32,000 bases of DNA from Candidatus Saccharimonadota bacterium (GCA_965231145.1 OZ246420.1:720001-752000), one strand, 5' to 3'. Counted from the stretch's first letter, positions 3,946 through 29,756 are shown. Made by a program: numbers and translations. The notes: generated by a model not told the origin, from the letters alone.

Positions 3946-3967
3946 CGTTTAATTTTTAATAAATAAT

Positions 3968-5576: not shown

Positions 5577-5590
5577 TTATTCAAAAAAAA

Positions 5591-9826: not shown

Positions 9827-9843
9827 GAGATAATATCTCCTAG
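9823..9843. terminator. Perfect hairpin between the convergent Rep and CDF genes (candidate bidirectional terminator)
   Basis: ctaggagat-aat-atctcctag overlaps the Rep stop codon. A T-rich stretch follows on the + strand. Confidence 0.45.
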
Positions 9844-9867
9844 TTGCTTTGTTCTTAGCTTCATGCA

Positions 9868-10659: not shown

Positions 10660-10705
10660 ATAATGAGTTTTAGGTAAAGTATTTATGTTTCATACTGTAG
10701 TATAT

Positions 10706-11122
10706 CTAATTGAACTGTATCTGAAAGCTATACATTCCCATAGCACACGTTCCATTAACAACATCTCAAGCTTTTTGTTCTGGCAGTTGCACTATATCAG
10801 ATCATTTTGGATCTAAGTTTTTTGAATAGCTCAGCTCAGGTATTCTTACAGCACTTTCACACCCATAAGCATTTCTCCCCTGTATTTTAATTTCTGTAGG
10901 CATTCCCGCCTTAGCAACAGTCATTTTTGGACTATATCCTTGCCCTGCAGTTATGGTGATTTGTTGCTTTCCATTTACCACTACTACATTTGAAGATGGC
11001 GCAGTTGAGACTGTTCAAGCATTGCTTGAAGTATTATCACCTTTGTAAAGTTTCACACCAGTAACTATACCTCCTACTAAGAGAACAGTTACAATGGCAA
11101 TAATAATGTTTGTTTTTGTCAT
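10706..11122 (-). CDS. Membrane-anchored cupredoxin-like small domain protein (138 aa)
   Basis: N-terminal TM IIIAIVTVLLVGGIV, then VVVVNGKQQITITAGQGYSP...YGCESAVRIPEL...GTCAMGMYSFQIQF. This is the type of protein commonly found next to HMA-permease and copA genes. Three TGA-Gly. Confidence 0.7.
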
Positions 11123-11132
11123 TGAAAAGAGA

Positions 11133-12137
11133 TTAAAGACTAAAGAAAGGCTGTATAATACCCAATGCAACAAGACTGCTTGAGAAGTTATAGAGCGCTA
11201 ATACGATCAAGATAATACCGATTGTTTTGAAGAAGAGGTTTGATGATGATGACTTTTGGATGGATTTTCATGTCACACTCAATAGTAAGAGCATAGGCAA
11301 AGTACCTAAAGCAAAGCTTAACATCGTCAACCCTCATGCTAAGAAGCTACCTGTAGAAAGTGTATATACCTGCATTGACTGTGTGAAACCGCATGGAAGA
11401 AAGAATGTTCCAATACCTATCAGAAGAGGTCAAAGAAATGAATTACCTTTTCAAGAAAAACGCTTAAAGATACCTCATCAAAATGCTACTCCCCCTCTTA
11501 CAACTCATAAAAGATTCAGTCATAGAATGAAGAGAACTACTGCTATAACCATATTTAGCACAATACTTACATTCTGCGAAAGTTGAAACGCTGCACCGAT
11601 CATTCATAAAATCCCTCAAAGAATGAAGAATCCTACAAGTCTTCCAATATGAAAGAGTGAATGCGGGCGAAATGAAGAGTTTTGTGAATATACCGTTCAT
11701 AAGGCTAAAACTACTCACCCTACAACTGCAAGGCAGCTTGATACCGATGCTATCAGTCCAATAATAAATGATGTTCCATACGTCCTATTTTCTGCGTTGA
11801 GCATTTGTAGCAATCCAAGTTTTTGAAGCTCTACAAATCCATATATCAAAGCAGCTGCCATGACAAAGGCAAGGATGTATTCTCACCGATTTATTGTTTT
11901 TTCTTGAGGTTCAGTATGTATACTATAACCATGAGGATGAAGCAAAGGATTCATAATAGCAGATAGCTGTTCAGGTGTCACTTCCTCATCACTATGAATT
12001 ACTTCCACAGTTTGACGTCTAAGACTTACTTTCACATGATTCACACCTTCGATTTCGCTTACTGTATCTTGTATCAAAAAGATACATGCCTTACAGTGCA
12101 TTCCTTTCACATGAAGCGTATGTGCTTGTTGATCCAT
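11133..12137 (-). CDS. HMA domain fused to a DsbD_2/TauE-like multi-pass permease (334 aa)
   Basis: Extends track ORF 11883..12137 (HVKGMHCKACI) through about 14 TGA. TM region has SSCLAVVGG and FFLPCGFTQ motifs. I checked the frame triplet by triplet and found no TAA or TAG. Confidence 0.75.
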
Positions 12138-12165
12138 TATGTAAAGTTTTTTACGAATAAAAGTC

Positions 12166-14436
12166 TTACAGTTTTGTATTTTTCAATCTGAGGCTATTTG
12201 CTACCACGCTTACACTACTCATCGCCATTGCAAGTCCTGCAAAAATAGGATTGAGTAGTACAGGATAAAAGAGACCTGCTGCAAGTGGTATTCATACTAT
12301 GTTATAGATAAACGCCCAAAAGAGGTTTTGCTTGATAGTTGCCATTGTTTTTCTAGAAAGCTTAATGGCTTTTACAAGCTTGCTTATATCTCCTGCTAAA
12401 AGTGTAATATCAGCAGTTTCTATAGCTACATCAGTACCTGTACCCATAGCAATTCCTACGTCAGCTAAAGCAAGTGCAGGCGCATCATTTACACCATCTC
12501 AACACATCGCTACGACCGCTCACTCCTCTTTCAGTGAACGAATTACATCTGCTTTTTGATGCGGCAACACTTCTGCTCTTACATCATCTATTCATACGAG
12601 GGAAGCAATATGTTCAGCGGTTTGTTTGTTGTCTCCAGTTAGCATTACTGCTTTTATTCAAAGACGATGAAGCTCAGCGATTGCTTCTTTCGCATTATCT
12701 TTGATAGTATCTGCGATTCCAAATATGGCCATTACCTCTTTATCTGTAGCAAGGAAGATTGGAGTTTTCCCTTGAGACGTAAGAGTAAGAATATCTTTGA
12801 GGTCATACGTTGCTCATATATCATCCATAAGCTTTATATTACCTGCATACCATGTAGCACCAGCTATTACTCACTCAACCCCTTTTCCTTCAATCATCTT
12901 GAACGAAGAAACTTCTTGAAGCTGCATGTTTTCTTTGCTCGCACTGTTCACAATAGCTTCAGCAAGTGGATGCTCAGATTGCTTTTCAAGGCTCGCTAAT
13001 ATTTGTAAGTCATTGGCTCTATAGTTTCCTATATAATCTACCAGTTCAGGTTTCCCTTTTGTGATAGTTCCTGTCTTATCAAAAACAACAGTTGTTACTT
13101 TATGCATTTTTTGCAGGCTTTCTGCATTCTTTATCAGTATACCCTGTTCTGCTCATTTACCCACACCCACAATAATTGCTGTTGGCGTGGCAAGTCATAA
13201 AGCACAAGGACAAGCAATTACTAATATACTTACAAAGGCAACTATACCCGTTACAAAGTTTCCTGTAATAATCCACACTATGAGTGATATTATTGCTAGA
13301 ATCAAGACGATTGGCACAAATATTGAAGAGATCTGGTCAGCAAGTTTTTGAATTGGAGCTCTTGATCCCTGGGCTTCCTGTACCATGTGGATAATATGCG
13401 CCAGCATACTATCTGACCCTAAAGACGCAGCTTTCACCTTGAGAAATCCTTGTTTATTTATTGTCCCTCAAATAACTTTCTCTCATTCTTTTTTCTCTAC
13501 TGGCATAGATTCACCTGTAATCATAGATTCATCTATACTGCTTGATCCACTGGCAATGATACCATCAACGGGAATTTTCGATCATGGCTTGATAAGTATA
13601 ATATCATTTTGTTGTACCTGCTCTATAGATATTTCCATTTCTTTTCCGTCTCTTTCTACGATCGCTGTTTTTGCTTGAAGGTTCAAAAGCTTTTCGATTG
13701 CTTCACCAGTTTTAAGCTTTGATTTCGTCTCAAGATATTTTCCATAGTAGATGAAACCAATAACGACAATAACCACATCATAGTAATGAATGCTCACATC
13801 TAAATAAGGAGCAAGAACCTCTTCAAATGCGCTTACTATAAAGCTATAAATGAATCAGACGAGAGTTCCAAGTCATATCAAGGTTTCCATACTTGCGACA
13901 CCAGTTTTCAAGAATCTCCACAAAGCTATGATGTATTGTTTACCAATAACAAATAATACATACGTGGCCATGAGAGGGAATGTATGATGCCAAAGCTCAT
14001 ATAGCCATTCTGACATTTCAGGAAAAAACCCTTGCTTACCTCATATATCAAGAATCATATATACAAAACTCAAAACCACAAAAGGAATGATGATGTTAAT
14101 GTTTTTTTTCATCCCTTTTATCTCTTCAAGCTTTTCGTCTTTCGTTTGATTCATCCCTAAATGAGCTGCATGTTCATCTGCTGACATTTTAGAATGATCC
14201 ATCTTACTATGATCTACTTTTGGAGCAGAGCCAATAAGCTGATACCCCATAGGCTCAATAGACCTATTCATATCTTCTATACTCACCGTTTCAGGATCAA
14301 AGTTAAGCTTAGCAGTATCAGTAGCAATATTCACTTCACATTCTTCCACTCATGGAAGCTTTTTGAGTGACTTTGTGATATTATGTGCACAGCTGGCACA
14401 GTGCATCCCTTTCACTTTATATGTATCTTGCATCAT
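12166..14436 (-). CDS. copA: Copper-translocating P1B-type ATPase (756 aa)
   Basis: Joins track ORFs 12871..13107, 13195..13437, 13582..13797 and 14041..14349. Motifs are GMHCASCA (HMA), [39 protein letters not shown] and [16 protein letters not shown] checked the whole frame for TAA and TAG. Confidence 0.95.
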
Positions 14437-14460
14437 TCTTTTGCTAGAAAGTAAAATATA

Positions 14461-15600
14461 TTATGGAGTTCACCCTATTCAGTTTGTCCAAATACTTATA
14501 CCATTGGGCATTTTACCTACTGGAATAGTACTCTCAACTTTATTATCTATATTATTTATAACTGTGACCGTATTACTAAGAAGATTTGTAACATATGTTT
14601 TCTCTCCATTTGGAGATATAACTACTCCATGTGGAGCTTCTCATCCTATATACTTTTCTACAACATCAAGACTATTTGCATCAATTTTATAAATACTACT
14701 TCCAACAGGTTCATCAAAATAATATCACTGATCTGCCACATAAATATATGCACTATCTGGCGTAGAATATAGCTGTATTGGTCATACTGATCACTCTGGC
14801 AAACTCACCGTCTTAACTTCTTTACTAGCAATCTCATAACGAGCAATACTTTTAGCATTGTAGAGAGAAGCAAACACGTACTTATTATCTGGCGTTACTG
14901 CCACCTGAATTACTTTTCAATTCAATGGAATGATTTCTGACGTATAAGTCACTGTATCTATCTTCGCTATTCATCTTTCTCCTATAAGTGCAACATAAAG
15001 CGTTGTCCCATTGGCAGATAAACGCAATCAGTGAGGCTGCGCTCAATCAGGCAATACTACTGTTTGTTTTACTTTTTTGGTTGTTAAGTCTACTACATAG
15101 ACCTTTCATTTATCCTGAGACGTAACATATGCTGTACTATCGTCATGACTTATTACTGCATGTGCTAGATGCGCTCACTTATCAAGGCTAACACGTCAGA
15201 TAACAGTATCGGTCAGCGGATCGATGATAACTAACTCATCGTTATTTGTTTCTTCTACCGTATGTCATTCTTTTTCATCTTCCTTTATGTTCGCTGTTAT
15301 AACTACTACTGTTCCTTTGGGTCATACTTGGACATTATGTGCCGAGAACGATAAAAGCTTACCATAGTATTGCTCTGTTAAGCTTATTGTTTTTATCACA
15401 GTATTTTTATCTGCATCGATAACACTTACTGCACTTTCTCATTCATTTGCTATGTATATCTTCTGATTTACTGACATATTAATATCTTGTTTTTTCTCAA
15501 ACGAGAAATTTCTATTCGCTCATTTTATCGTCAACATCAACCATAATAAGAGCCCAAAGGCAAATACACCAATAACTACAACAACTCATTTGTATTTCAT
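14461..15600 (-). CDS. YVTN-family beta-propeller repeat protein with an N-terminal signal anchor (379 aa)
   Basis: The frame is open only under table 25; about 18 of about 31 Gly codons are TGA. Repeats of the type YIANE-G-ESAVSVID, AYVTSQDK-G-KVYVVD and KTYVTNLLSNTVTVI. Confidence 0.8.
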
Positions 15601-15627
15601 ATCTGTATAGCTTAGAAAGTAAAAAAG

Positions 15628-15906
15628 CTATTTTCTCGTGCTTACATCCCGTACTCTTACTAACTCATCTACAAACTCCTCTACTTCAGCTTTGTCTTTT
15701 GAAACCAGCTTAGTCTTACCACAGCACTTCAAATGGTTTTTGAGAAGTTGTCTGTTTGCTTCTTTTAAAAGACCTTGAGCTGCGTTGATTTGGTTCGCAA
15801 TATCAGCACAATAAATATCGTTCTCGATCATCTGTAAGACTTTATCTAATGTGCCTCTAGCCTTCTTAACTCACATTGAGATCTTATCCTTATTACTTCA
15901 AAGCAT
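15628..15906 (-). CDS. csoR: CsoR/RcnR-family metal-sensing repressor (92 aa)
   Basis: Extends track ORF 15628..15831 upstream through 2 TGA to ATG 15904-15906. KKARGTLDKVLQMIENDIYCADIANQINA...NHLKCC gives the C...H...C ligand pattern of the DUF156 family. Confidence 0.85.
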
Positions 15907-15932
15907 GGTTCATAACTTAATGGTAAAACATG

Positions 15933-15947
15933 ACCCTATGGTAGGGT
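15933..15947. promoter_or_regulatory. Candidate CsoR operator (inverted repeat ACCCT-N5-AGGGT)
   Basis: Lies 27 nt upstream of the csoR start. It resembles the G/C-tract inverted repeats bound by CsoR-family repressors. Confidence 0.35.
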
Positions 15948-16045
15948 TATAGCAAAGATACCTATTATTGCAAGGGGAAATAAAAGCTGAGTTGCATCTT
16001 ATCACTAAAAGCGTACATATAAGATATTTACTCATCAAGATCGAC

Positions 16046-17272
16046 ATGAAATATCAGTCATATTATCCATATCCTCTTCAGGTTGATTTTGAAAGTCCGT
16101 TATGGGATTTCATCAAAAAAGATTGAAACGAAAAAATTGTATGAGATCTTATGGTAAAACGGATGCAAAATTGACTACGCTATAAGCGCATGAATAATGG
16201 AAAGATGGAAAGCTTTATATCTGAAACCTTAATGGCTATCAGATATTGATTACCGCCTGAGAAAAAAGATGATTGAATATATGTAAGTGGACTTTATTTA
16301 GTAGTAAGTCGCATTATCGAAGTCCTTATCACAAGAATGAAAGATTGCGGAGTTGATGATTGAGTGTTAGTAAGAATACTTATGTGAGGGATGCTTCACG
16401 AGTATTATACGACTGGTGAATATGGAGAAAAACTCCGAGATATTCTTGATGAAGAATGAGCAAAACAGAAGGCTGCTAAATGAAAATTTGTAAAAACACC
16501 TGTATCACAGTTACGGACTAAGCTTATTCCATTTCATACTGAATACGCATCTCAGAAAAGGAATGAAGCAGAATATAAACTATGAAAATTCCTTACTGGG
16601 ATTCTTAAAGGGAAAATACCTGTAATGACAATGGACATACTGAAAGCAGCGACAACAACTTCCATTATAGAGCCTGAGTTATTAAAATTCGATAAAGAGG
16701 GAATAAAAATAACTAAAGAAGATTTTCCAAACGACCCTGACATAGTCAAAGGATTTCAGCAAACACGTATTTTAAGAAAGTGTGAACTTTACGAAATAAA
16801 TCTGCTCATCTGTATAGTGGCCGCTATATACCAAGAGGAAGAATTATTCCTGTATTTTGACCCTTACCATCTTAGACTATGAATATGCGATAGAAAGAAC
16901 TTAGTCATCAAAAGAGACCATGTAAACCTGATAATGAGCTTTACTAATATACTTCATAGCATCTTCTGTGAGCATTGCATCAAGATAGCATTTGGTAAGT
17001 TTGATATAGATTTCTCTACTCTAACACCTGATGAGACAGCAGATGTACTAAAAAAGATGTTAGATGACCTTTATAGTCAACTTTCAAAAGTGTGTCCTGA
17101 TGATCTCACAGTAACCGTTGAATGAAAGGTAGAAGATATGTGAAAATTTGCTGAAGTAGATGAAGCAATAACTCATTGAAAGGTTGGATTTGATAAGCAT
17201 GATGGTAAGAAAAAATGAATTATTTTTAAGGTAAAAAAGAATTTGAATAGCTACAGGAAAAAGATAAAATAA
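16046..17272 (+). CDS. Hypothetical protein (408 aa), no recognisable domain
   Basis: Joins track ORFs 16625..16882 and 16934..17125 and extends upstream to ATG 16046 through many TGA. I verified the frame triplet by triplet. TAA at 17270-17272. Confidence 0.6.
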
Positions 17273-17633: not shown

Positions 17634-19358
17634 ATGGCAAGAAAAAGAAATCTTTTACAGTACGATATTGCCAATCAAAGTCCTGTGTTTTCTGCTTGAG
17701 AAAAAGTAATAGATAAAGGCAAGAAGCAGTGAATCATCTATGCAAGAGTTTCTACAGAAGAACAAAAGAAAGATGGAAATGGGATAAATGCTCAAATCAC
17801 TGACTGTAAGAATTGGGCAAAAAGAAACGAAGTTGAGGTAGTAAACATATATACTGATGAAGCTATATCCTGAACAGATCTAACAAGACCATGATTCAAT
17901 ACAGCTATCAAATTCATAGAACAACAGAACAAGAAAGGAAACTTCATTGAGTATTTTATATGTAACTCCACTTCAAGATTTTCAAGATCACCTGAACTAT
18001 GAAAAACTTTTGATATGGTAGGAAGGGTACAGATAGCCTGAGCTAAGTTAGTCTCTGTAGGTAACTGATGAGTAATAGAGACCAATACTGAAGAGTGACT
18101 TATACAATCAACACTGAGCTTCATGAGTGATGCTCTTGAATCTATGAAAGGAAGTAAAAGAGTGAAATATGGTCTTAAAGGAAAAATCTATGAAGGATTG
18201 CGACCATTTTCTCAATGTCCTATGGGATACGAAAGAATAGTAATAGAAAGATGAGGTAGAAACATAAAGAAGCTTATCAGAAAAGAACCTCATGCAACCA
18301 TCCTTGCAGATGGTCTTAAACTCTTTGCTGACTGATCTCTTATGACGAAGCAAGATCTCTTTCTCTATTTTGAGGAACAATGACTAAGATCAAACAGCAA
18401 GAAGAACAAACAAGAAAAGCTTCATAAAAGCGTAGTGTATAATACAATCTTAGATCTATGGAAACTGTATGTGTATGCAGGCTATCTGACGTATCCACCA
18501 CTCTGAATAAATGAGCTTATTCCAGCAGATCATCCTGCGCTTATAGATTTAGATACTCTCAGCAAGATCATGAAGAGGTTGAGCTATGATAAAGAAACAG
18601 TAAACCAAGAAACAAAAAAATACGATATGGATTCTCAAGACTACCCTCTTACAAGAATACTACAATGTGAAGAGTGCTGAAAATGAGTAACCAAGCGAAA
18701 GTCGAAATCTAAGACCTGAGACTATCACCATTACTATGGTTGCAACAACCCTGATTGCACCTTACATAAAAAGTCTATCAAAAGAGACGAAGTACATAAT
18801 GCAGTAAGAGAGAAGCTTACTACTCTTTCTGTTTGAGACAAAATGATAAAGGTCTTAGAGTTAGTTTACAAAGAAGAATTACAACTCATTACCAAAGACA
18901 AGAAGGTAAGAAACAAATCAAAAGAAGAAAGGATTGCAAACCTACAGAAAGAAATGAAAGCCTTAGAAAACATCATGGAAAAAATAACGAACGATCAACT
19001 CTTCCAGAAGAAACAGGAAGAATGGGCAAAACTCAATCAAGAAGTTGAGAATATCCATAAGGAGATAGACGATCAAGACTTCCAAAAAGATGAACAGGAT
19101 AAAGTCTTTAATGAAGCAAAGACTATTTTATGCAATCCTGCCGCTATCCGAGATTTTGGAGATGCTGAATTAAAGCAGTTAGTAATTAGGGTGTGCTTCA
19201 ACAACAAAATTATGTATAAAAAAAATCAAGGGTTGCACACCCCTGAAATATCAGGTATCTATTTAGCTAAAGAGCGATTATCATATTCGTCATTACGTAA
19301 ATCTGGAGACATTGAGTTTATTTCTGAACACCTATGACTTGACTGAGGGTGAATTTAA
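17634..19358 (+). CDS. Large serine recombinase (574 aa)
   Basis: Motifs IIYARVSTEEQ (catalytic Ser), SG-TDLTRP-G-F, Zn ribbon CEEC-G-K...YYGCNNPDC, and coiled coil (track ORF 18843..19337). The frame is continuous from ATG 17634 through about 20 TGA. It reads past TGA 19335-19337 to TAA 19356-19358. Confidence 0.9.
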
Positions 19359-19818: not shown

Positions 19819-20292
19819 ATGGCCAAAAGCGGAAAAGAAAACATTAAGGTATTCATTAATACCTGCTATACTGAAATATGAGCACAAGTGGCAGAATTGC
19901 AGTCTTATAAAAGCACTCTAGCCATTATTTTTTCTGCAATAGCTATAATATTAACCGTACTTCCCAACGAAGTTACTATACATTTAGACAAAGATTATAA
20001 CGTAATTAAGGTGTTTCAAGGATATTGCATATTAATCACAGTATATACGCTTGTATTAATCTGAATTAGCTATCATCGAGGTATCAATATACAAAAATTA
20101 AGCACTATATCCGTAGATGAAGAGGATTATTTGCAACAAACTGCCCAGAATTTAACGTCAATTATTAAGAAAAATGACGTTATATTAAGTAGACAGCAAC
20201 GAAACCTCGGTATTATATTTCTTTCTATATTATTGGTACTACTAGCTACAATATCTATAGTATTTATTGGATATGAAGTCGTTATTAAATAA
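19819..20292 (+). CDS. Three-TM membrane protein (157 aa)
   Basis: ATG 19819, TAA 20290-20292. TM helices LAIIFSAIAIILTVL, GYCILITVYTLVLIGISY and LGIIFLSILLVLLATISIVFI. Frame verified. Confidence 0.5.
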
Positions 20293-20307
20293 TCACCCCC
20301 GCTTATT

Positions 20308-20901
20308 ATGTCCCATATTTCTAAAGAAGAAGAGAAAATCAAATTAGGTCTTATAAAGGCAATCCAATACATAAACTTATACAATTGAGAGAAAGATGAA
20401 TATAAAAGATTTTGCTATTTAAAAGATGCTTTTCTTATAGCTACAGAATTTACACCAACAGCATTTATTAAAGAGCATATATGAAAAAAGACTAGCGACC
20501 AATCAATACTAGCAAAGATTAAGCTATTAAAAATCACAAGACATTTGCTTTCTCATTACCCCTTTTTCTCGTCCTGAGATGAAATTTTTATCGATTACGA
20601 AATGATGAAGGGAGGGCAAATTATATCTTATTTCGAATGAATAGATAAAAGTCCTATTCATATCCAATATCAATATATTTCTTGAGAAGAAGTAAACTGT
20701 GAAATCTGTATTCCTCCTCTATGACCTAATTGACGCTTCTTTTTTAATGAAATGTTTAAATTTACTGAAAATCGCTTCTCTAATGATAAAAACGCACCTT
20801 TAGTAGTAATGACGATGATTGCTCTTACTCTTTTTCAAGAATATATAAGGTCTATACCCGGGTTAGACAAAAAACTGTCAATTCATTGGGAAAATACTTA
20901 A
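20308..20901 (+). CDS. Hypothetical protein (197 aa) containing an R-x4-H element (KITRHLLSHY)
   Basis: ATG 20308, TAA 20899-20901, 8 TGA-Gly, frame verified. The Rx4H match is short and could be chance. Confidence 0.5.
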
Positions 20902-20912: not shown

Positions 20913-23900
20913 CTAATCCCACTTTTTCAAAATAGTTTCTACATCTTCCTTCAGCGTTTCAGCTAACGGAACTTTACTTATCGCCTCTCTAATTGCTGAT
21001 TTAATAATACTCTTTTCAGAAAAAGGAAATTCAATCTTACTGAGAAAGAGGACAAAGAAATCTAGATATTTTGCTAAATTTTTAGAAACATTCACATTGA
21101 TTATAAGAGCAGTAAAAACACTTATAGCTGCTTCGTAATTCTTAAAAAACTTGAATTTAGATATTATTTCTTCATGGGAATATCTCTCTTGATTTAGAAT
21201 ATTAATAATCACATCTACACTATATAGGGTATTTTTATAATTCTCCATTATTAAAAGAGCTAGGCACTCATCGTGCTTTTCCTTAGTTATGATACTATGT
21301 TCAAACAGCAGGGTAATAATTGTATTAATCGAAGTTGATTGAACCTTAAATTCTTGGAGGGCAATCAGAGAAAGGACCTCGTCATCTGCATAAAAATAAG
21401 CTCCAGTTTGTTGAGCATACATCATAACATCTAAGTATTCTACCCCTAGTATTTCTTTTAATCTTTCGTTTTTAACAATAATACTAGATACCATAGGCGA
21501 AAGTTCACAGGCGTTTTCAATAAATTGTTTAATTTCTAATAGCACTTGTTGTTTTTGTTTATATTCTTCTTCTGTATGCTCGTGTTGTGCATATTGTCAT
21601 TCGCCAGTCTTATAAAAGGATATGTGCTTTCATCATAAATGCTTTTCCTCCAAAATATCTCAATTGAGCTTATCAAGCGTTGACTGCAACACTACTTTAG
21701 AAATAGGCAACTTGTTAAAGCACTCTAAAAGTCCCAGTTTATGTAAAGTTATTATAGCAGTAATATCTATGACGACACTTCATATTTTTAATAAATCCTT
21801 TTGTACACCTCATAATACTCTAATTCATCACAATGAAGTAATTGCATAGTAAGCTTCTACTATATTCATATTTCTATTTTCTGCTAGGAAGGACAATGTA
21901 ATTTTACCTTCATTATATAATTTTAATAGCTCCTGTCCTTGTTCATAATTAGCATCTGCAGTGGCATTCATTTGTTCTAGCATATTCTTTATACTGTTTT
22001 CATCATTCTCATCTATAGTAAGCATCTTTACTGCACTCTTATCTCAGAATTTTATTTCTGAACTGCTTAAAACATAATGATACGCATATAAAAACTTACT
22101 TTTAATATTTTTAACCTTTCACTTTCTCGTTCAACTCAAAGCAATCTCATCTCACTCTTTAGCATCTTTAATTAAGCTATATAAGTTATCTGAGGTTTTT
22201 AATATTTCAACTCCGGGTAGTCATACGATATCACTTTGAATAATATAGCGAGCAGTAGAGCCGTTCTCTTCAAGCTCAAAGTAAACCCCCTCAGCTATTG
22301 TGTTCTGATGTAATATGAATGAGAGTTTGCCTTGCTTATCATTGTTTATTACCATCATATAAAGATTATAAGCATCTTGTTCTGAAACATTATCACATAA
22401 GTATTCATAAGCCATTTTTAATGCTTTTTCTCCATATCATAAAGAAATTAAGATTTCAGCGTAGGTTCTTATATTACTTCTATAAATTTTACCATATTCA
22501 TCACTTTCTTGACAATATTTATCTACTTCCTTTAATCTTTTTTCATCTTGTGTTAAATATTTTAAGTGATTTAATCGTAGTAATGAATTAGGGTCATTAG
22601 TCAGTTTTACTAAATTCTCACAGTTTATAATTGCGTTTTTATAATCTCTAATGTTTTGGTAAATCTCAGTTTTCATTATAAGAACATCCTTATCTATGCC
22701 ATATACTTTTATATAATCATCACAAAAAGAAATTAGTTTTGAAGCTTCTATATCATTTCTTTCTCCTGCTTTGATAATATTTTTAAGGGTGTCTAGATTA
22801 TTATTTAATGGAAATAGCTTTTCATAAATCTTATACGCTTCTTTGTTATAATTTAATGTAAGTAACATTTCTCATGTATAATATAATTCCCACAGAGGAA
22901 GGGTATCTATTTGGGAAATTATATTTTTAACAAGTCAATCAACATCTATTTTTATGCCCATTTTCACTATATCTCATTCGCTTATGCAGGCTAGTAATGT
23001 AATTTTATCTTTTATCGATGTAGAGTTAATCATCTCATCTAACATGGATTTTGCCAATGTTTCATATCAAGCGGTCCTCAAATAGAATTCTAAAAGAGTA
23101 TATTTTACTTTATGGGTATCTTCTTCATTTTCGGGATTTAATGCTAACAATATTTTCTCTGCTTTTTCTATATTTCAAATTTGTGCATAGGTTCTAGCTG
23201 CAATTAATGTGGTTTGAACATCTGATAAGTCCTCCTTAATCATGCCTAAAACTTCTTCAGCGGGTTTGCCAGATATTAAAGCCATCCAAATTTGATTAGT
23301 ATGAGTAGTAGTTAATTCCTTTTTGCCAATTCCTCGTTTTTGTCAGCTATTTATTATCAAATCAAATATTTGTAGTGCTTTATCTTTTTCACCTAGAGAA
23401 AAATTGACCAACGCATTATTCATCAATCGATAAATAAATATGGATTTAAATTTAGAACCATAGATATTATCCCATAGTTCAGAATAGACTGATTGTAGCC
23501 ATATTAACTCCTTCTTATCCTCTGCAGTTAGTAAATATGTTCCTTTTTCTATTTTCTTATTTTTCTCAAATTTACTTAATTTAATATCAGCTATTTTACT
23601 AACACAGTATAAAGTCTTTTTAGGGTTCTTTTTCATGATTTCTTCAAAAATACTTATTGCTTTATCTTCTATTCACTGTTGCATTGCTATAAGTCCCAAA
23701 GTCATGTTTATTGCTTCGTTTGATGCTATATGGGTAGGAATATTTTTATATATTTCCTCAAAATTACCTGATTTCCCCTCAATTACTATCTTATAATTAT
23801 ATGCTGGTAATACTTTGGGATTAGATTTTAAAATCTCATCTAAAGAAGTTATTGCTTGTTCATCAGATATTTTTTTATCTAACCATTCAATATAAATCTT

Positions 23901-24674
23901 TACTGTTTGTGAGTATTCTGGTCCGTAATTCACGTCACTCGCTTTTTTAAGCCATTTGACAACCTCTTCTTCGTTATGAATATTTCAAAAGAACCTGACA
24001 TTTAATAAGTAGAATTTGAACCTTACTTCTACATTAGAACCTTCTACTAAAGGTATAAGAGCATCTCTTAATACAGCAAACTCATCTAAACGATACGAAT
24101 ATATTAAGTCGTTTGCTATATTGTCTATAATGTCAATCAGATACTTATCATCTGGCTTTTTAAAACTTTCTTGTATACTTTTTAATATTTTCGTGTGTTC
24201 ATTTAATGTTTCCTCTGTTTTATCTGTAAAATATCTATTTATAATATCTTGCCCATCTGGCAATGAAAATAATCTGTTCCAATCATTGTACCACACCAAC
24301 TCAATGCCTGCCTGTTCAGCATTTTGATGAATAGTATCCTTGAGTGGATTATCTGCCCAAACTAAATGAGAAAATATATAAATTTTAGTTAATTCATATT
24401 CTCCGCTTATTTTTCTATCTATCGCATTTTGAATGGATTTTGCTATTTGCCTATAATGGTCATAACTTACACTTGTTAATGCTTCAAAAAATTTAGCTTG
24501 AAATCATATTCATCTAACTGCTTTAGTTTCAATTCAGGCATAGTTAAAAAAATGTTCTATCGGCTCTACAATATTACATTCTCTACGAAAAACTTCTTCA
24601 CATAATTGTTCAAAAGCAGTTGTAGTATCAGAATGAATAACTTGAAATATCTTCCAATCTATTAAATTAGGCAT
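20913..24674 (-). CDS. Giant TPR/alpha-solenoid protein (1253 aa) with an N-terminal PD-(D/E)xK-like motif and a C-terminal PIN-like region
   Basis: Track ORFs 20913..21545, 21828..22025, 22221..22415, 22437..22868, 23343..23636, 23673..23933 and 23985..24299 all share one frame. I read every intervening triplet and they are linked only by TGA codons. ATG 24672-24674, stop 20913-20915. N-terminus WKIFQVIHSDTTTAFEQLCEEVF...YAGIETKAVRGIGFQAKFF. C-terminus GSVVIDITAIITLHKLGLL...AYFYADDEVL. Confidence 0.7.
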
Positions 24675-24849
24675 CTTCTTCTAAAGCTAATGAATAAAGC
24701 TTGTAATAATATATTTAAAATAATTGGTATTCACAAGTCTTAAAATCTGTGTGCAAAAGTATATGAAAACCTTTTATCATATTAAATAAAGAATTAGTAA
24801 TTTGAAGCTACTAATTCTTCAATCGTCAAATAATTGTTAAGTACGCTTT

Positions 24850-25386: not shown

Positions 25387-25854
25387 ATGAAAAAATGGCT
25401 TTATGTAGTGGCGATAATTCTTCTAATCGGCGTACTTTGAGGAACATACTACTATGTTCAACTCGACAATAAATCTTCTAATAATCCGGATATTGAAATG
25501 TGTAAAAATGAAGTGATGAGTGTTTTAAAATCGCCCTCAACGGCAGTTTTTGGAACATTTGATACTACAACTGACAATATTGCATCATACGTAAGATGAG
25601 AAGTAGATAGTCAAAACACATTTTGAGGTGTTTTAAGAATGAAGTTTGTATGCGTAATTAATTGATTTGATGTCAGAATAGTAAGTTCTGAAGGAGATAG
25701 AGATGAAATAAACGAATTAGAAATACTCAATAGCTATATTTTCAATAATACTATACCTACTGGCACAAGAGCAGAAATATATACGCAGTACATGAAAGAT
25801 ATCGCAGAAATAAATCTTAAATATTATGAATGAACTAAGGACTTACTTCCATAA
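25387..25854 (+). CDS. Signal-anchored small protein (155 aa) carrying the PSTA.F...DSQN.FG...R.KF.C domain
   Basis: ATG 25387, TAA 25852-25854. N-terminal TM WLYVVAIILLIGVL. The segment MSVLKSPSTAVFGTF...VDSQNTFGGVLRMKFVCV is homologous to the C-terminus of the 5591..6874 product. Confidence 0.7.
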
Positions 25855-25946: not shown

Positions 25947-26138
25947 ATGAAAGCCATTCAACCTATAACGGTTGAACTCGCTAGGGATATGGTGTGACAT
26001 TTAGTCAGTGAAAATTGTGAAGATACGGAGTTACTCGAGTTCATTAATAATTGTAAAAGGATAGCAAATATCTTGATTGATTATGCTGAAGAAAATATTT
26101 TAAAAGATTTACCATCTTACGAAGAAAAAGATGAGTAA
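25947..26138 (+). CDS. Small acidic protein (63 aa) whose stop overlaps the recombinase 3 start
   Basis: ATG 25947, TAA 26136-26138, overlapping ATG 26131 of the recombinase. Related to the 17360..17527 product. Confidence 0.5.
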
Positions 26139-27750
26139 AAAAGCAGTAGTATATACAAGAATATCTTCAACCACTCAAGAGAGTTGAGGTTGATTAGGTA
26201 GCCAAGAAACGTCTTGCAGACAATATTGCGAAAGAAAAGGTTATGAAGTAATAGAGGTTTTCCAAGATGTATTCTCATGAGGAGAACTTAACAGACCTTG
26301 AATAAAGGCTATGTTCAATTTTATTGATGACTATAATCGCAAAAATACGGAAAAAATTAGTGTGTTTGTTACTCATAGTATTAATAGAATAGCTAGAGAT
26401 TATAAGGTACATCTTGAGCTTACTACAGAATTATTAATGAGAAAAGTAAACTATGAAACTGTAGATATGACCTTCGAGCGTACTCCCATGGGTAAATACA
26501 TGGAATGAATGATGGCGTTGAATGCTGAATTCTTTAGAACAGAAAATAAAGAAAGAGTTATCTCTAGACAGGAAGCTAGATTATTAGATGGTTATCGACC
26601 ATTTGACCATCCTACCGGATATAGAACTACCTATGCTCTCGGTGGATGAAAATTACTTATTGCAGATGAACCTAATGCTTCAATTATTAAAGAAGCCCTT
26701 GAAGGATATGCAAATGATATATTTAATAGTATAGATGAGGTAGCTAAATTTTTACAGCAAAAGGGCTTAAATTTATATAGAATTAGAAACAAGAAAAGAG
26801 AATGAAAATATAATTATGTTCATAAATCATTGGCATGAAGAATGCTAAAGCAAATTTTATATACCGGTTATATCGCATATAATAAGGTTACTTTCGATAA
26901 AAACTGATTAATAAAGAAAGAATGGAACATTCCATTGAGGAAAGGTAGGCATGAGTGAATTATCGACTTATCGACATATTATAAAATTCAGGAAAAACTA
27001 AATGGAAAAAGACCTTATGAAAAGGAAACTAAAGCTATAAACGAGAATTTCCCTTTAAGGTGATATATTGAGTGTGATTGTTGTAATCTAAAATTTAGTT
27101 CGGGCTTATCAAGAAGCAAAAATAGAAAACAAGTCCCTTATTATCAATACAATAAAGGATGTATACATAAGGGGAAATCTATTAATGCAAATAAATTGCA
27201 CACAGACTTTGATAACCTAATTCAAGATAGTCAAATAAATGATGAATTTCTTAATTTTATGAAACTAGTAATAGCATCCGAATATGAACAAAGGAAAATA
27301 GACAAAAAACAAAATAAACAGAGTTTTGAAAAAGAGGTAAAATCTATAGATAATCAGGTGAATAATTTAGTTAATAGTCTTGCTTCTTCATCTTCTAATC
27401 TCGCAAGAACAAGAATTGAGCAAAAAATAGACGAGTTAGAAATGAGAAAGGTTAATATTAATGAGCAAATGAGTGAGGATAATAGTGAAGAATTAAGTAG
27501 CAAAGTAATAGAAATAGCGTGCTCTATTATAGAAGACCCATATTATATATGGAAAGATGGCAATATATCACAAAAACAATCTCTATTAAATATATTGTTC
27601 AGAAAAAAAATCCCAGTCAATAAAATGACCGGAACTTTCTGAACACTACCTTTTAGTAGTTTCTACCTGTTTTCTAGCAATATTTCAAAAGATAAGTTTC
27701 AACATTTGGAGGTGACGAGACTCGAACTCGTGTCTAAAAGTCATGCATAG
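26131..27750 (+). CDS. Large serine recombinase (539 aa) whose 3' end overlaps the tmRNA gene antisense
   Basis: Motifs VVYTRISSTTQES (catalytic Ser), FS-G-GELNRP-G-I, Zn ribbon CDCCN...YYQYNKGC, and coiled coil (track ORF 27196..27642). Under table 25 the TGA at 27640-27642 is Gly. The frame then runs on as ...TLPFSSFYLFSSNISKDKFQHLEVTRLELVSKSHA to TAG 27748-27750. Confidence 0.85.
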
Positions 27751-28056
27751 ATCCTTACTACCATCATAGTCTGTGAATTTCTCCCGGAGGCTATCTGAGC
27801 CCGCGACAGGCATCGATACTTTAATATATGTTTTAAGCCCACATAATCGGCTGGTTTTCCTGCTCATCACTCGGGCCTAGCAGGAGTCAGGGGCCGAGTT
27901 TAGGCTTTAACTACGCAGCATATGCGTAATTGAAAGCTGACAATCTCATGTTAGAGTTTGCATGTTTTGGTGAACGATTATTTTATCCTCGGTACGTTCG
28001 TCGAGCGATGGCTAGATATACACATGGGGTACTTCTATCAATACCAGCACACCCCC
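27707..28056 (-). ncRNA. ssrA: tmRNA (transfer-messenger RNA)
   Basis: 5' GGGGGTGTGCTGGTATTGATAG pairs with 3' CACCTCC-A, giving a G3-U70 Ala identity pair. T-arm is ACGAG-TTCGAGT-CTCGT. Internal tag frame GCA AAC TCT AAC ATG AGA TTG TCA GCT TTC AAT TAC GCA TAT GCT GCG TAG (27961..27911). CCA is not encoded. Confidence 0.9.
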
Positions 28057-28117: not shown

Positions 28118-28447
28118 CTAAGCCATAGCAAGCTGTTTTACTCTTTTGGGAATAGCAGCCAATTTTTTGCTTTCTTCTTTATCTAAGCTTAGCTGGTAGA
28201 CATCATACATATTTTGTAATCCTATCCATACTTGTGCGGAAGTGCCAAATGCGGCTCACACACGGGAAGCAATCCTTGGGGTAACGTTTCTACGTTCCTT
28301 GAGGATATTATTTAATTCTGACTTATCAATTCCCAAAATGTCAGCAAATTGTTTCTGTGATCGTCCTCTTGCTGCAATTTCTTCACGTATGTATTCACCT
28401 GGGTGAAAAGCCATAGGCACTCTGCTATTACGCATGATAATAATCAT
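28118..28447 (-). CDS. higA: HigA-type antitoxin (XRE-family HTH)
   Basis: Extends track ORF 28256..28447 through one TGA: ...AFHPGEYIREEIAARGRSQKQFADILGIDKSELNNILKERRNVTPRIASRV-G-AAFGTSAQVWIGLQNMYDVYQ...; TAG at 28118-28120. Confidence 0.85.
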
Positions 28448-28461
28448 TAATGATAAAAACT

Positions 28462-28764
28462 TTATTGATAGTGATTATTAATCTCTATTATTCATACAAC
28501 CTGTATCTCTTTGATTTGATTAACTGTGAATATTAATCTTCGAGCCTTATTTAGTCTGACACTTTGCTGACCATCACGATCACCATTAAGCTTTTCACAA
28601 TGCAGGCCACCGATAGCATATGCATCTCTTATATCAGATGCCTTTATAAAAAAGTTTATCCATTTGATATAACTTCTGATAATGTCAGGATGAAATCTTT
28701 TAGACTTTCATTCCCGATATAGTTCCTCTAGCTTAGGATCATGAAAAATCACCTGCATGGGCAT
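28462..28764 (-). CDS. higB: HigB/RelE-type toxin (plasmid maintenance system killer, 100 aa)
   Basis: ATG 28762-28764, TAA 28462-28464, 2 TGA-Gly. MPMQVIFHDPKLEELY...GGLHCEKLNGDRDGQQSVRLNKARRLIF fits the HigB pattern. It lies immediately upstream of higA. Confidence 0.8.
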
Positions 28765-28813
28765 TTTTTTATTTGTAAAATAATATTTTTGTTTTTGCAC
28801 TTATCAAATGAAG

Positions 28814-29186: not shown

Positions 29187-29756
29187 CTACACTTTTAGTG
29201 ACCCACGGAAACCTCTTGCAGCATAGTATGACTCTGCACCATTGTGATAGGTGAACACCATATCATAGCGACGATCACAAAAGATGGCACCGCCAAGTTT
29301 TCTAATATCTGAAGGCGTCTTTACCCAACTTGATGTTTTTGTATCAAACTCCCCTAGCGTCTGGAGCTCTCTATACTGCTCTTCTGTTAGTATTTCAATA
29401 CCCATGCCCGTCGCCACATCCAGAGCATTATCTTTTGGCTTATGCTCTTTTCTCGACTGCCATGCCGCGCGATCATAACACAAACTTCTGCGTCCCTTCG
29501 GAGACTCTTCTGCACAGTCAAAAAATACATATTCATTTTTCTTTTTATCGTATCCTACGACATCTGGCTCTCCGCCAGACGCTTCCATCTCATGAAGCGA
29601 CCACAGCTTTTCAGGATGAGACTCCAGCTTTTTTTCTATCTTTTCCCATACAAGGCCTTTATGACGACTCATATTTTCCTCAAAACGGTCTTTCAATGCG
29701 CTCAGTAATTTTCCTTTCTGCTGTTGTGATAGCTCTTTTTGATTTTGCTTTGACAT
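29187..29756 (-). CDS. DUF4256-family protein (189 aa)
   Basis: Uninterrupted track ORF. The motif LWSLHEMEASGGEPDVVGYD matches what I remember of DUF4256. No TGA codon. Stop is TAG. Confidence 0.85.
   Translation of the reverse strand: MSKQNQKELSQQQKGKLLSALKDRFEENMSRHKGLVWEKIEKKLESHPEKLWSLHEMEASGGEPDVVGYDKKKNEYVFFDCAEESPKGRRSLCYDRAAWQSRKEHKPKDNALDVATGMGIEILTEEQYRELQTLGEFDTKTSSWVKTPSDIRKLGGAIFCDRRYDMVFTYHNGAESYYAARGFRGSLKV

What the first reader, a model, noticed from the sequence alone, without database searches (positions are those of the whole stretch)
20913..24674. A 1253-codon ORF invisible under the standard code: nuclease-like N-terminus, long TPR-like solenoid, PIN-like C-terminus
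Seven separate track ORFs on the minus strand share one frame. I read every intervening triplet and found only TGA, with no TAA or TAG, between ATG 24672-24674 and the stop at 20913-20915.
- The N-terminal about 120 aa (FEQLCEEVF...YAGIETKAVRGIGFQAKFF...IYIFSHL) has the E...QxK spacing of PD-(D/E)xK/Mrr-like restriction folds.
- The central about 750 aa are repetitive, helix-rich and TPR-like.
- The C-terminal about 350 aa contain VVIDITAIITLHKLGLL...E...YFYADDEVL, resembling the acidic triad strands of a PIN-like nuclease with an inserted helical region.

A protein with an effector, a repeat sensor and a second effector, carried on a mobile island next to small membrane genes, is the kind of architecture seen in single-chain immune sensors. 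I cannot match it to any named system, so it is my best candidate here for an undescribed defence or conflict protein. The domain calls come from short motifs only.
Basis: partly seen in the sequence, partly recalled or inferred. Interest (0 to 1): 0.8.

Follow-up and report, generated by a model that had tools for sequence, protein, structure and literature searches.

The report
Recoded TPR–GreA/B-C–PIN defence protein
The 1253-codon gene is real once TGA is read as glycine, and it is a divergent member of an already described family of bacterial anti-phage proteins (nuclease head, TPR repeats, GreA/B-like RNA-polymerase-binding domain, PIN nuclease), not an undescribed system.

Summary
The minus-strand frame 24674..20913 has 1253 sense codons, 25 in-frame TGA, no TAA or TAG, and ends in TAG. 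The whole window is TGA-recoded, and TGA means glycine (code 25).

The C-terminus is a PIN domain with all five family-conserved acidic residues. The middle is a TPR solenoid. The N-terminus is probably an Mrr-like restriction-endonuclease-fold domain, which is the weakest call.

Residues 787-883 are a GreA/GreB C-terminal-like domain, supported by a family profile, by PDB GreA/GreB hits and by an AlphaFold/Foldseek model.

The architecture REase+TPR+GreAB-C+PIN is the commonest form of the "TPR-GreAB-C-PIN" (TGP) conflict system of Kaur et al. 2021. One TGP protein, Agp of E. coli Bab/Agp, has been shown to mediate abortive infection.

At least 134 representative proteins (E<=1e-10) match; the full-length ones listed (mostly about 1150-1450 aa) are single chains that align collinearly with residues ~270-1170.

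The gene stands alone in an integrative-element region flanked by two serine-recombinase genes next to the tmRNA gene. Public protein sets hold it only as table-11 fragments or as a TGA=Trp translation.

Verdict: a new, very divergent (<=25% identity) member of a known kind, from a code-25 bacterium.

The parts
20913..24674 (-). Complete gene: 1253 codons plus a TAG stop. It is read with TGA=Gly (code 25) and has 25 in-frame TGA codons.
   Evidence: - Searches give the translation and stop-codon counts.
- Homologues have Gly at the TGA positions.
- The identical gene is present on two Logan contigs, L001 and L002.
24681..24683 (-). In-frame TAG two codons upstream of the ATG; it fixes the N-terminus.
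   Evidence: -.
- The N-terminus 'MPNLIDWKI' also lines up with the N-termini of homologues such as P0008 'MPNLSRFQI'.
24225..24674 (-). Residues 1-150: probable Mrr-like (PD-(D/E)xK, restriction-endonuclease fold) effector domain. Candidate active-site residues are E22, E49 (or N44), Q59 and K61. G47, G55 and G57 are TGA-encoded.
   Evidence: - MAFFT aligns it collinearly with the REase-type N-domains of 24 homologues. Q59, K61 and W132 are invariant; F21 and E22 are nearly invariant.
- Global hhalign gives z=4.2, with 3 of 150 shuffles reaching the real score.
- The AF2 model has pLDDT 73 and the order helix, beta-hairpin, helices, strand, helix, strand.
- The only PDB match with E<=0.001 is Avs4, 8dgf_B (E=2e-4, 160 columns). 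Its effector is an Mrr nuclease.
- Against: an HMM of the homologues' N-domains is not significant on this sequence. Pfam finds nothing.
22320..24224 (-). Residues ~151-785: helical linker followed by a TPR-like alpha-solenoid, the putative sensor or scaffold.
   Evidence: - Pfam TPR_14, TPR_19 and TPR_2 hit residues 324-352 and 489-519.
- It aligns collinearly from about residue 270 with homologues whose TPR hits are strong: TPR_14 in 36/37, best 2e-27.
22026..22316 (-). Residues 787-883: GreA/GreB C-terminal-like (GreAB-C, FKBP-like) domain plus the conserved 'IKSKF/YxxA' helix.
   Evidence: - An HMM of this region built from 33 homologues, without this protein, hits residues 787-883 at 44 bits, E=8e-16.
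- The family profile hits PDB GreA 1grj (5e-5), GreB 2p4v (5e-4), 2pn0 and Gfh1 2etn.
- Pfam GreA_GreB hits 26 of the 34 members scanned (33 homologues plus this protein, which is not itself among the hits), best 4e-10.
- The AF2 model matches the C-domains of GreA, GreB, Gfh1 and Rnk over 74-85 columns, at 2.8-3.6 A for the Gre/Gfh1 chains.
21780..22025 (-). Residues 884-965: helical linker of three helices between GreAB-C and PIN.
   Evidence: - AF2 places helices at model residues 123-152, 158-164 and 169-179.
- Pfam HTH_upst_double_PIN hits weakly here (E=0.07-0.24) and in 5 of 34 family members, best 7.5e-4.
21237..21779 (-). Residues 966-1146: PIN domain of the TGP family. Its acidic residues are D970, D1001, D1082, D1097 and D1098.
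   Evidence: - Pfam PF20698 PIN-TPR-GreABC hits at E=1e-13, above the gathering score.
- An HMM built from 34 sequences of Kaur et al.'s PIN.aln gives 88.6 bits, E=1.9e-29, covering model positions 2-181 of 183.
- All five acidic columns are D/E in at least 94 of 111 homologues and are kept here.
- The AF2 model matches PIN proteins PAE2754, VapC and SMG6 with target-normalised TM 0.5-0.65.
20913..21236 (-). Residues 1147-1253 plus the stop: C-terminal helical extension conserved in the family. Its function is unknown.
   Evidence: - The family consensus continues to the C-terminus.
- AF2 confidence is low beyond model residue 405.

Best explanation
The gene encodes a single-chain TGP conflict protein: an Mrr-like REase N-domain, a TPR solenoid, a GreA/B C-terminal-like domain and a PIN domain. 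It comes from a bacterium that reads TGA as glycine (code 25, the Gracilibacteria/Absconditabacteria type). It stands alone as a gene in an integrative-element region flanked by two serine-recombinase genes beside the tmRNA gene.

Shown here:
- The ORF and its genetic code.
- Membership of the TGP family.
- The GreAB-C and PIN folds.
- Retention of the PIN acidic residues.
- Standalone gene organisation.

Inferred from the family literature, and not tested here, is the mechanism:
- In an uninfected cell the protein is inactive.
- During phage infection, the GreAB-C domain docks on the RNA polymerase secondary channel as GreA/GreB do. Alternatively, or in addition, the TPR array binds a phage or altered host component.
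- That event brings the PIN nuclease onto RNA and/or drives oligomerisation.
- Oligomerisation switches on the N-terminal Mrr-like DNase, as tetramerisation does in Avs4.
- The result is nucleic-acid degradation and abortive infection.

My probabilities: TGP family member about 0.95; anti-phage or anti-mobile-element role about 0.7; N-domain has an REase/Mrr fold about 0.65 and is catalytically active about 0.45; RNA polymerase is the sensed partner about 0.4.
For: - ORF and code.
- PIN domain: PF20698 at E=1e-13. A profile from the published PIN alignment gives E=1.9e-29. D970, D1001, D1082, D1097 and D1098 are all conserved.
- Family size and shape: 458 representative proteins at E<=1e-3 and 134 at E<=1e-10. 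The full-length homologues listed (mostly about 1150-1450 aa) align collinearly with residues ~270-1170.
- GreAB-C domain: a homologue-only HMM hits residues 787-883 at E=8e-16. The family profile hits PDB GreA, GreB and Gfh1. Pfam GreA_GreB hits 26 of 34 members scanned.
- Structure: the AF2 model of residues 770-1195 has pLDDT 82 and pTM 0.72. Foldseek finds both PIN proteins and GreA/GreB/Gfh1/Rnk C-domains.
- N-domain. A relative of the homologues' N-domain gives a weak Pfam Mrr_cat hit (5e-4).
- Literature: the TGP system, its 13 alternative N-terminal effectors including REase, and the RNAP-surveillance hypothesis are in PMC8195603. The string REase+TPR+GreAB-C+PIN occurs 1034 times in its source table.
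- Experiment on a relative: the Agp TGP protein confers T5 abortive infection, and a GreA/B-C point mutation abolishes signalling (bioRxiv 10.1101/2024.11.07.622273).
- Avs4 comparison: the Mrr effector of Avs4 is described as assembling into a tetramer in which two dimers form the active sites.
- Context: two PADLOC candidate systems (PDC-M62, PDC-M24) and a HigBA pair lie in the same window. Serine recombinases and the tmRNA gene are nearby.
Against: - No functional data exist for this protein or for any REase-type TGP.
- The Bab/Agp study found no effector-independent activity for the TGP core, so the PIN 'first line' role is unproven.
- N-domain homology is weak. The HMM is not significant and the hhalign empirical P is about 0.02.
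- The AF2 model of the N-domain was built with an alignment of the presumed relatives and with Trp at three TGA sites. pLDDT is only 52-55 around residues 40-70.
- The column of the catalytic Asp holds N44 in the MAFFT and hhalign alignments. E49 fits only if the hairpin is short.
- Foldseek did not report which part of Avs4 was matched.
- PADLOC 2.0 has no model that hits this protein.
- The immediate neighbours are uninformative.
- The other candidate defence genes lie about 16 kb away, in what may be a different element.
Confidence: 0.75

Rival explanations
1. The family is the same, but the N-terminal domain is not an active nuclease. It would be a degenerate or unrelated alpha/beta module that acts as an oligomerisation or adaptor domain, leaving the PIN domain as the only catalytic effector, acting as an RNase on transcripts.
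For: - In the MAFFT and hhalign alignments the family's catalytic Asp column is N44.
- The family motif GRxGQxQ is absent.
- HMM and Pfam searches do not recognise the domain.
- The PIN acidic residues are fully conserved.
Against: - Q59-x-K61 and the F21-E22 helix are retained at invariant or nearly invariant family positions.
- G47-I-E49 reproduces the family's G-V-D motif if the hairpin is as short as in homologue P0011. AF2 places 47-49 and 54-59 as a beta-hairpin.
- The best PDB fold match is Avs4, a nuclease-bearing protein.
Confidence: 0.3
2. The protein is not an immune sensor. It would be a housekeeping or element-encoded regulator that uses its Gre-like domain to modulate the host RNA polymerase and its PIN domain to process RNA, for example for maintenance or addiction of the mobile element in the manner of a toxin-antitoxin system.
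For: - GreA, GreB, Gfh1 and Rnk are ordinary RNAP secondary-channel factors.
- PIN domains are typical VapC toxins.
- The gene sits on an integrative element next to a HigBA pair.
Against: - The N-terminal module varies among close homologues, and nothing aligns to residues 1-150. The literature lists REase, HNH, TIR, SIR2, PNPase and peptidases in that position, which is the hallmark of conflict systems.
- The family evolves fast, at most 25% identity.
- One family member has been shown to act as an Abi system.
- No antitoxin-like partner gene lies in the same orientation.
Confidence: 0.12
3. The trigger is a phage protein recognised directly by the TPR solenoid, as in Avs pattern-recognition receptors, and the GreAB-C domain plays only a structural role.
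For: - TPR arrays are the ligand-binding part of Avs3 and Avs4.
- The same REase-type N-domain is fused to a plain TPR array without GreAB-C or PIN in L003.
Against: - GreAB-C is a constant part of the family core.
- A GreA/B-C point mutation (S628L) abolishes signalling in Agp.
- The family has no STAND NTPase module.
Confidence: 0.25
4. The TGAs are true stops, and the locus is a decayed pseudogene or a set of short genes.
For: Public protein sets hold the table-11 fragments P0001 and P0004-P0007.
Against: - Every long gene in the window carries in-frame TGA, except the DUF4256 gene, which has none.
- TGA falls at invariant Gly positions of the P-type ATPase and at Gly-conserved columns of this family.
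- There is no TAA or TAG in 1253 codons (P about 1e-39).
- The protein aligns collinearly over about 900 residues with single-chain homologues.
Confidence: 0.01

Closest known systems
TPR-GreA/B-C-PIN ('TGP') conflict system, REase+TPR+GreAB-C+PIN architecture (Kaur, Iyer, Burroughs & Aravind, eLife 2021, PMC8195603; Pfam PF20698)
   Same: - Same domain order and same constant core: TPR, then GreAB-C, then the family-specific PIN domain, then a helical tail.
- A variable N-terminal effector position, here occupied by an REase-like domain.
- A standalone gene.
- A rapidly evolving sequence.
   Different: - At most about 25% identity to any representative protein.
- The N-domain is a divergent version that lacks the GRxGQxQ motif and has Glu or Asn where relatives have the catalytic Asp.
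- It is encoded in genetic code 25. No entry labelled Gracilibacteria appears among the passages shown from the TGP part of the published table; both mentions in that file concern another system.
- None of the 111 full-length homologues examined has the raised Trp content that a TGA=Trp mistranslation gives this gene.
Bab/Agp abortive-infection system of E. coli ECOR25 (Ibarlosa et al., bioRxiv 10.1101/2024.11.07.622273)
   Same: Agp has the same TPR-GreA/B-C-PIN core. It is the only experimentally tested relative. It protects against T5 by Abi, and its GreA/B-C domain is needed.
   Different: - Agp carries an N-terminal amyloid motif and signals to a separate pore-forming partner, Bab, encoded next door.
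- Here the effector is fused (REase-like), and no co-oriented partner gene is present.
Avs4 (AVAST type 4), an Mrr nuclease-STAND-TPR receptor, PDB 8DGF
   Same: - The N-terminal model's only significant PDB match is Avs4.
- Both proteins place an Mrr-type nuclease head in front of a TPR-containing sensor.
- The likely logic, oligomerisation-activated DNase, is the same.
   Different: - This protein has no STAND NTPase domain.
- It has GreAB-C and PIN domains, which Avs proteins lack.
- No sequence-level match to Avs4 was found.
GreA/GreB/Gfh1/Rnk RNA polymerase secondary-channel factors
   Same: Residues 787-865 share the C-terminal FKBP-like domain that anchors these factors on RNA polymerase.
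   Different: It lacks the N-terminal coiled-coil finger that reaches the active site. The domain is embedded in a 1253-aa multidomain protein.
VapC-type PIN-domain ribonucleases
   Same: Same PIN fold with conserved acidic residues.
   Different: - It is a family-specific PIN variant (PF20698) with a beta-hairpin and long-helix insertion.
- No VapB-like antitoxin is present.
- The PIN domain is fused to sensor domains.

Membership tests
TPR-GreA/B-C-PIN (TGP) system | C-terminal PIN domain of the family-specific type (PF20698) | tested here: met
   - Pfam gives E=1e-13, 52 bits, against a cut-off of 27.8.
- An HMM from the published family alignment gives 88.6 bits, E=1.9e-29, over the full model length.
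- The fold is confirmed by AF2 and Foldseek.
TPR-GreA/B-C-PIN (TGP) system | GreA/GreB C-terminal-like domain between the TPR array and the PIN domain | tested here: met
   - A homologue-only HMM hits residues 787-883 at E=8e-16.
- The family profile hits PDB GreA and GreB at 5e-5 and 5e-4.
- PF01272 hits 26 of 34 members scanned.
- Foldseek matches GreA, GreB, Gfh1 and Rnk.
- This protein alone does not reach PF01272.
TPR-GreA/B-C-PIN (TGP) system | TPR repeat array upstream of GreAB-C | tested here: met
   - Pfam TPR hits in this protein are weak.
- It aligns collinearly with homologues that have strong TPR hits.
TPR-GreA/B-C-PIN (TGP) system | Conserved acidic residues of the PIN active site | tested here: met
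   D970, D1001, D1082, D1097 and D1098 are present. These columns are D/E in 94-111 of 111 homologues.
TPR-GreA/B-C-PIN (TGP) system | Variable N-terminal effector or adaptor domain (one of about 13 types; REase is common) | tested here: inconclusive
   - No homologue aligns to residues 1-150, so this is a variable module.
- 42 of 111 homologues carry a G[VIL]D...QxK REase-type N-domain.
- This protein's N-domain shares FExLC and GxQAK with them, at z=4.2, and its model matches Avs4.
- The HMM is not significant.
TPR-GreA/B-C-PIN (TGP) system | Mostly standalone gene without conserved neighbours | tested here: met
   The flanking genes are on the other strand, and the same arrangement is seen in L001 and L002.
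TPR-GreA/B-C-PIN (TGP) system | Anti-phage / abortive-infection activity; interaction with RNA polymerase | not testable with these tools
   Known only for Agp. The RNAP interaction is a published hypothesis.
Mrr-like PD-(D/E)xK nuclease domain | alpha-beta-beta-beta-alpha-beta core with the catalytic motif E ... D ... (E/Q)xK | tested here: inconclusive
   - Q59-x-K61 and E22 are present.
- The acid on the first hairpin strand is either E49 or replaced by N44.
- AF2 gives the order helix, hairpin, helices, strand, helix, strand, with low confidence at the hairpin.
- Pfam Mrr_cat does not hit this protein and only hits weakly (5e-4) a relative of the homologues' N-domain.
Avs / AVAST STAND receptors | Central STAND NTPase (P-loop) domain | tested here: not met
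   No NTPase family was found in the Pfam, NCBIfam or PADLOC scans of this protein, and none is among the 25 most frequent Pfam families of its homologues.
Bab/Agp two-gene amyloid-signalling system | Adjacent Bell-domain partner gene, with an amyloid motif shared with the N-terminus of the TGP protein | tested here: not met
   - The N-terminus is a globular alpha/beta domain.
- The neighbours are on the other strand and give no significant Pfam hit and no PADLOC hit.
- Amyloid motifs were not searched for explicitly.

The most novel reading that the evidence does not exclude
The locus would be the first recognised RNA-polymerase-surveillance (TGP) immune protein of a code-25 Patescibacterium. 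It would be fully adapted to TGA=Gly, and so expressible only in code-25 hosts. Its N-terminal head would be a new, re-wired subfamily of the Mrr-like effector, with Glu49 or Asn44 in place of the canonical Asp and no GRxGQxQ motif, and with altered chemistry or a non-catalytic adaptor role.
Probability: 0.15. Interest if true: 0.45.

Novelty: new member of a known kind. Interest (0 to 1): 0.3.

Why it matters
- Recoding hides real genes. A 1253-aa defence-type protein is present in public protein collections only as table-11 fragments (including 210, 143, 97, 65 and 64 aa) or as a TGA=Trp mistranslation. Word-based homology searches with it found nothing.
- It extends the TGP family to a TGA=Gly lineage with a contig of about 1.1 Mb. 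It also supplies a very divergent sequence that could help define which residues of the GreAB-C, PIN and REase modules are truly constrained.
- It does not reveal a new kind of system. The architecture and the mechanistic hypothesis were published in 2021, and one relative has been tested experimentally.

Tried and rejected
- **Word-indexed searches.** Single-sequence searches with the full protein and with residues 781-1253 found nothing. A profile from the published PIN alignment recovered only this gene's own fragment and one 303-aa PIN protein.
- **Other libraries on the full protein.** PADLOC, NCBIfam and a single-sequence PDB search gave no useful hit.
- **Scans for close relatives.** Genome, metagenome and viral contig scans found none. 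The A3 alignment was too divergent to seed a locus scan. A scan with homologue P0008 returned one locus that shares only the N-domain.
  - I therefore used substrings of P0003, the identical gene translated with TGA=Trp.
  - Both AF2 models therefore carry Trp at the TGA sites, which weakens the model around residues 47-57 in particular.
- **N-domain by sequence.** The HMM built from 42 REase-type N-domains was not significant. Local hhalign found only the FEQLC helix. The A5 profile against PDB sequences gave only chance-level hits and not Avs4. Pfam on residues 1-168 found nothing.
- **Viral fold library.** The search with the N-domain model was uninformative.
- **Island boundaries.** No second copy of the tmRNA 3' end is in the window. 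Direct repeats were only weak AT-rich pairs. The element boundaries remain undefined.
- **Promoter and terminator scan.** Matches were at chance level in this AT-rich region.
- **Rejected: TGA=Trp (code 4).**
- **Rejected: Avs/STAND membership.** The protein has no NTPase domain.
- **Rejected: a Bab/Agp-type two-gene system.** No co-oriented partner gene is present.


Full report
**1. The observation**

Translating the minus strand from 24674 to 20913 gives 1254 codons. The in-frame stops are 25 TGA and the terminal TAG, with no TAA and no internal TAG. An in-frame TAG lies two codons upstream of the ATG, so the N-terminus is fixed.

Under table 11 the stretch breaks into exactly seven minus-strand ORFs of at least 60 aa.

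From base composition, the chance of 1253 codons free of TAA and TAG is about 1e-39. The other five frames carry 36-121 such stops.

The recoding applies to the whole window. ORF coverage rises from 0.42 to 1.33 when TGA is read as sense. Every long gene except DUF4256 carries in-frame TGA.

TGA stands for glycine, not tryptophan:
- It falls at CPCAL*LATP and *DGVNDAP of the copper P-type ATPase.
- Within this gene, homologues have Gly at the aligned TGA positions in 20% of cases, against a 4.6% background. Strongly conserved glycines include positions 841 (96/111), 950 and 746.
- With Gly at TGA, the protein's Gly and Trp contents match the family medians.
- TGA supplies 45% of the Gly codons in this gene, similar to most neighbouring genes. 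The gene is therefore fully adapted to code 25.

**2. What the protein is**

*The PIN domain and the published system.* Pfam places PF20698, 'PIN domain associated with the TPR-GreAB-C-PIN system', on residues 968-1105 (E=1e-13, above the curated cut-off), plus weak TPR hits.

This led to the literature. Kaur, Iyer, Burroughs and Aravind (eLife 2021, PMC8195603) described a widespread conflict system with two parts:
- A constant, rapidly evolving core of TPR repeats, a GreA/B C-terminal domain and a new version of the PIN domain.
- One of 13 alternative N-terminal effector or adaptor domains in front of it, including REase, HNH, TIR, SIR2, PNPase and peptidases.

In their source table the string 'REase+TPR+GreAB-C+PIN' occurs 1034 times, against 2971 occurrences of 'GreAB'. 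An HMM I built from 34 sequences of their published PIN alignment hits residues 966-1146 at 88.6 bits, E=1.9e-29, over the full model length.

*Homologues.* Word-indexed searches with the single sequence found nothing. The profile search returned a 210-aa protein identical to the C-terminus, a table-11 fragment held under source NCBI on a 1,107,293-bp contig. Its cluster also holds P0003, the same 1253-aa gene translated with TGA=Trp from two Logan assemblies.

An exhaustive HMMER search with P0003 residues 1-1195 found 458 representative proteins at E<=1e-3 and 134 at E<=1e-10. The full-length ones listed (mostly about 1150-1450 aa) align collinearly with residues ~270-1170 at 20-25% identity. 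None aligns with residues 1-150. This is the pattern expected for a constant core behind a swappable head. The homologues are single chains, not split genes.

*The GreA/B C-terminal domain.*
- Of the 34 sequences aligned over residues 770-1195 (33 homologues plus this protein), all hit PF20698. Twenty-six hit Pfam GreA_GreB, best 4e-10; this protein itself is not among the 26.
- The profile of that alignment hits PDB GreA (1grj, 5e-5), GreB (2p4v, 5e-4), 2pn0 and Gfh1, each over their C-terminal domains.
- An HMM of this region built without this protein hits residues 787-883 at 44 bits, E=8e-16.
- An AlphaFold2 model of residues 770-1195 with that alignment has mean pLDDT 82 and pTM 0.72.
- Foldseek against the PDB returns two groups. 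One is PIN proteins (PAE2754, VapC, SMG6; target-normalised TM 0.5-0.65). The other is the C-domains of GreA, GreB, Gfh1 and Rnk (74-85 columns; rmsd 2.8-3.6 A for the Gre/Gfh1 chains).

*PIN active site.* The five acidic columns of the family PIN domain are all kept: D970, D1001, D1082, D1097 and D1098.

*The N-terminal domain, the least certain part.*
- Among 111 full-length homologues, 42 carry an N-domain with the motif FExLC...GRxGQxQxGVD...GxQCK...ATTxxRD...WxDI.
- An HMM of these does not score this protein significantly.
- Global hhalign gives z=4.2, with 3 of 150 shuffles reaching the real score.
- MAFFT aligns the whole domain collinearly. Q59, K61 and W132 are invariant; F21 and E22 are nearly invariant.
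- The family's catalytic Asp column holds N44 in these alignments. Alternatively, G47-I-E49 matches G-V-D if the hairpin is as short as in homologue P0011.
- Two of the three TGA-encoded glycines here (G47, G57) would then coincide with the two conserved motif glycines. This is my inference.
- An AF2 model of residues 1-171 with 24 such N-domains as the alignment reaches pLDDT 73. It shows a helix (15-32), a hairpin (47-49 and 54-59), helices, a strand (97-101), a helix and a strand (125-129).
- Its only PDB match at E<=0.001 is Avs4 (8dgf_B; E=2e-4, 160 columns). The N-terminal effector of Avs4 is an Mrr nuclease.
- A Burkholderiaceae protein (L003) has the same type of N-domain as the homologues and gives a weak Pfam Mrr_cat hit (5e-4).

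Caveats on the N-domain:
- The model used Trp at three TGA sites.
- Its alignment presupposes the homology it is meant to test.
- The hairpin region has low confidence.
- Foldseek did not say which part of Avs4 was matched.

**3. Genomic context**

The gene stands alone. The genes downstream (157 and 197 aa, 19819-20901) are convergent with it, and the gene upstream (148 aa, 25408-25854) is divergent. None has a significant Pfam hit or any PADLOC hit.

It lies between two large serine-recombinase genes (17634-19358 and 26131-27750). The second of these abuts the 3' end of the tmRNA gene at 27706-28056. The same arrangement is present in two Logan assemblies. I could not find att repeats.

The window also holds:
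- Two PADLOC candidate defence systems: PDC-M62 at 459-3333 and PDC-M24 at 3496-4741.
- A HigBA-like pair.
- A Rep_1 gene and a metal-resistance cluster.

**4. How it most likely works**

The steps shown here are the ORF, the code, the domain architecture, the folds of the GreAB-C and PIN modules, and the retention of the PIN acidic residues. The mechanism is inferred from the family literature.

Kaur et al. proposed the following sequence:
- The Gre-like domain engages the beta-prime coiled-coil at the RNA polymerase secondary channel on polymerases hijacked by a virus.
- The PIN domain cleaves the extruded transcript.
- The N-terminal effector is released if that fails.

In the one tested relative, Agp, T5 infection triggers Agp-dependent activation of a partner pore-former. 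A GreA/B-C mutation abolishes this, and no effector-independent activity was seen. In Avs4 the Mrr nuclease is described as assembling into a tetramer in which two dimers form the active sites.

For this protein I therefore favour infection-triggered oligomerisation that activates a fused Mrr-like DNase, with a possible RNase contribution from the PIN domain.

Three points remain open: whether RNA polymerase or a phage protein is the ligand, whether the N-domain is catalytically active, and what the PIN domain cleaves.

**5. Comparison with known systems, and novelty**

The protein passes every sequence- and structure-level membership test for the TGP family that I could run. The exception is the identity of the N-domain, which is inconclusive.
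- It is not an Avs/STAND protein, because it has no NTPase domain.
- It is not a Bab/Agp-type two-gene system.
- It is a new and very divergent member of a known kind.

Its particular features are genetic code 25, the absence of close relatives in the genome, metagenome and viral collections scanned, and a re-wired N-terminal motif.

The claim that the system is undescribed is not.

**6. Verdict**

The finding is a correct rescue of a gene hidden by recoding, but it is of modest novelty. Interest 0.3.

Noticed in passing
window 459-3333 (+): An ABC/AAA_21-type ATPase (658 aa) is followed by an HNH-like protein (298 aa). They match PADLOC candidate system PDC-M62 A and B (3e-27 and 2e-21) and, more weakly, Septu PtuA/PtuB. 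Both genes are TGA-recoded.
   Followed up: partly
window 3496-4741 (+): A DUF6978 protein (149 aa) and a DUF1828/DUF1829 protein (257 aa) match PADLOC candidate system PDC-M24 A and B (7e-31 and 5e-67).
   Followed up: partly
window 6980-8815, 17634-19358, 26131-27750 (+); tmRNA 27706-28056 (-): There are three large serine-recombinase genes. The first is split into two ORFs and may be disrupted. The last overlaps the 3' end of the tmRNA gene. This suggests tandem integrative elements at ssrA. No att repeat was found.
   Followed up: partly
window 8894-17272: A Rep_1 replication protein gene is followed by a metal-resistance cluster: a CDF-like transporter (my reading of the translation, not scanned), an HMA-DsbD_2 protein, a copper P-type ATPase, a YNCE beta-propeller and a CsoR-like repressor. 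The G+C content here (0.35-0.39) is higher than in the TGP gene (0.29).
   Followed up: no
window 28118-28800 (-): A HigB-like toxin and an HTH_3 antitoxin pair lie between the tmRNA gene and tRNA-Leu(CAG).
   Followed up: no
window 25408-25854 (+) and 5543-6874 (+): The 148-aa membrane-anchored protein upstream of the TGP gene and the C-terminus of the 443-aa protein share a motif, 'SPSTA.F...V.G.VDSQN.FG...R.KF.C'. No family is assigned (seen in the translations).
   Followed up: no
window 20913-24674 (-); proteins P0001, P0003-P0007: Public protein collections hold this gene only in two forms. One is five table-11 fragments (210, 143, 97, 64 and 65 aa), whose lengths equal five of the seven table-11 ORFs. 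The other is a TGA=Trp translation from Logan. This is why the word-indexed searches failed.
   Followed up: yes
L003 3085-5673 (+) (Burkholderiaceae MAG JBKJLF010000035.1): The REase-type N-domain found in many TGP homologues (40% identity to the N-terminus of P0008) is here fused to a TPR_12/TPR_10 array without GreAB-C or PIN. The head domain therefore appears to move between different sensor bodies.
   Followed up: partly
window 29187-29756 (-): The DUF4256 gene has no TGA codon at all and the highest G+C of the genes tabulated (0.43), unlike its neighbours. It may be a recent acquisition from a standard-code organism.
   Followed up: no
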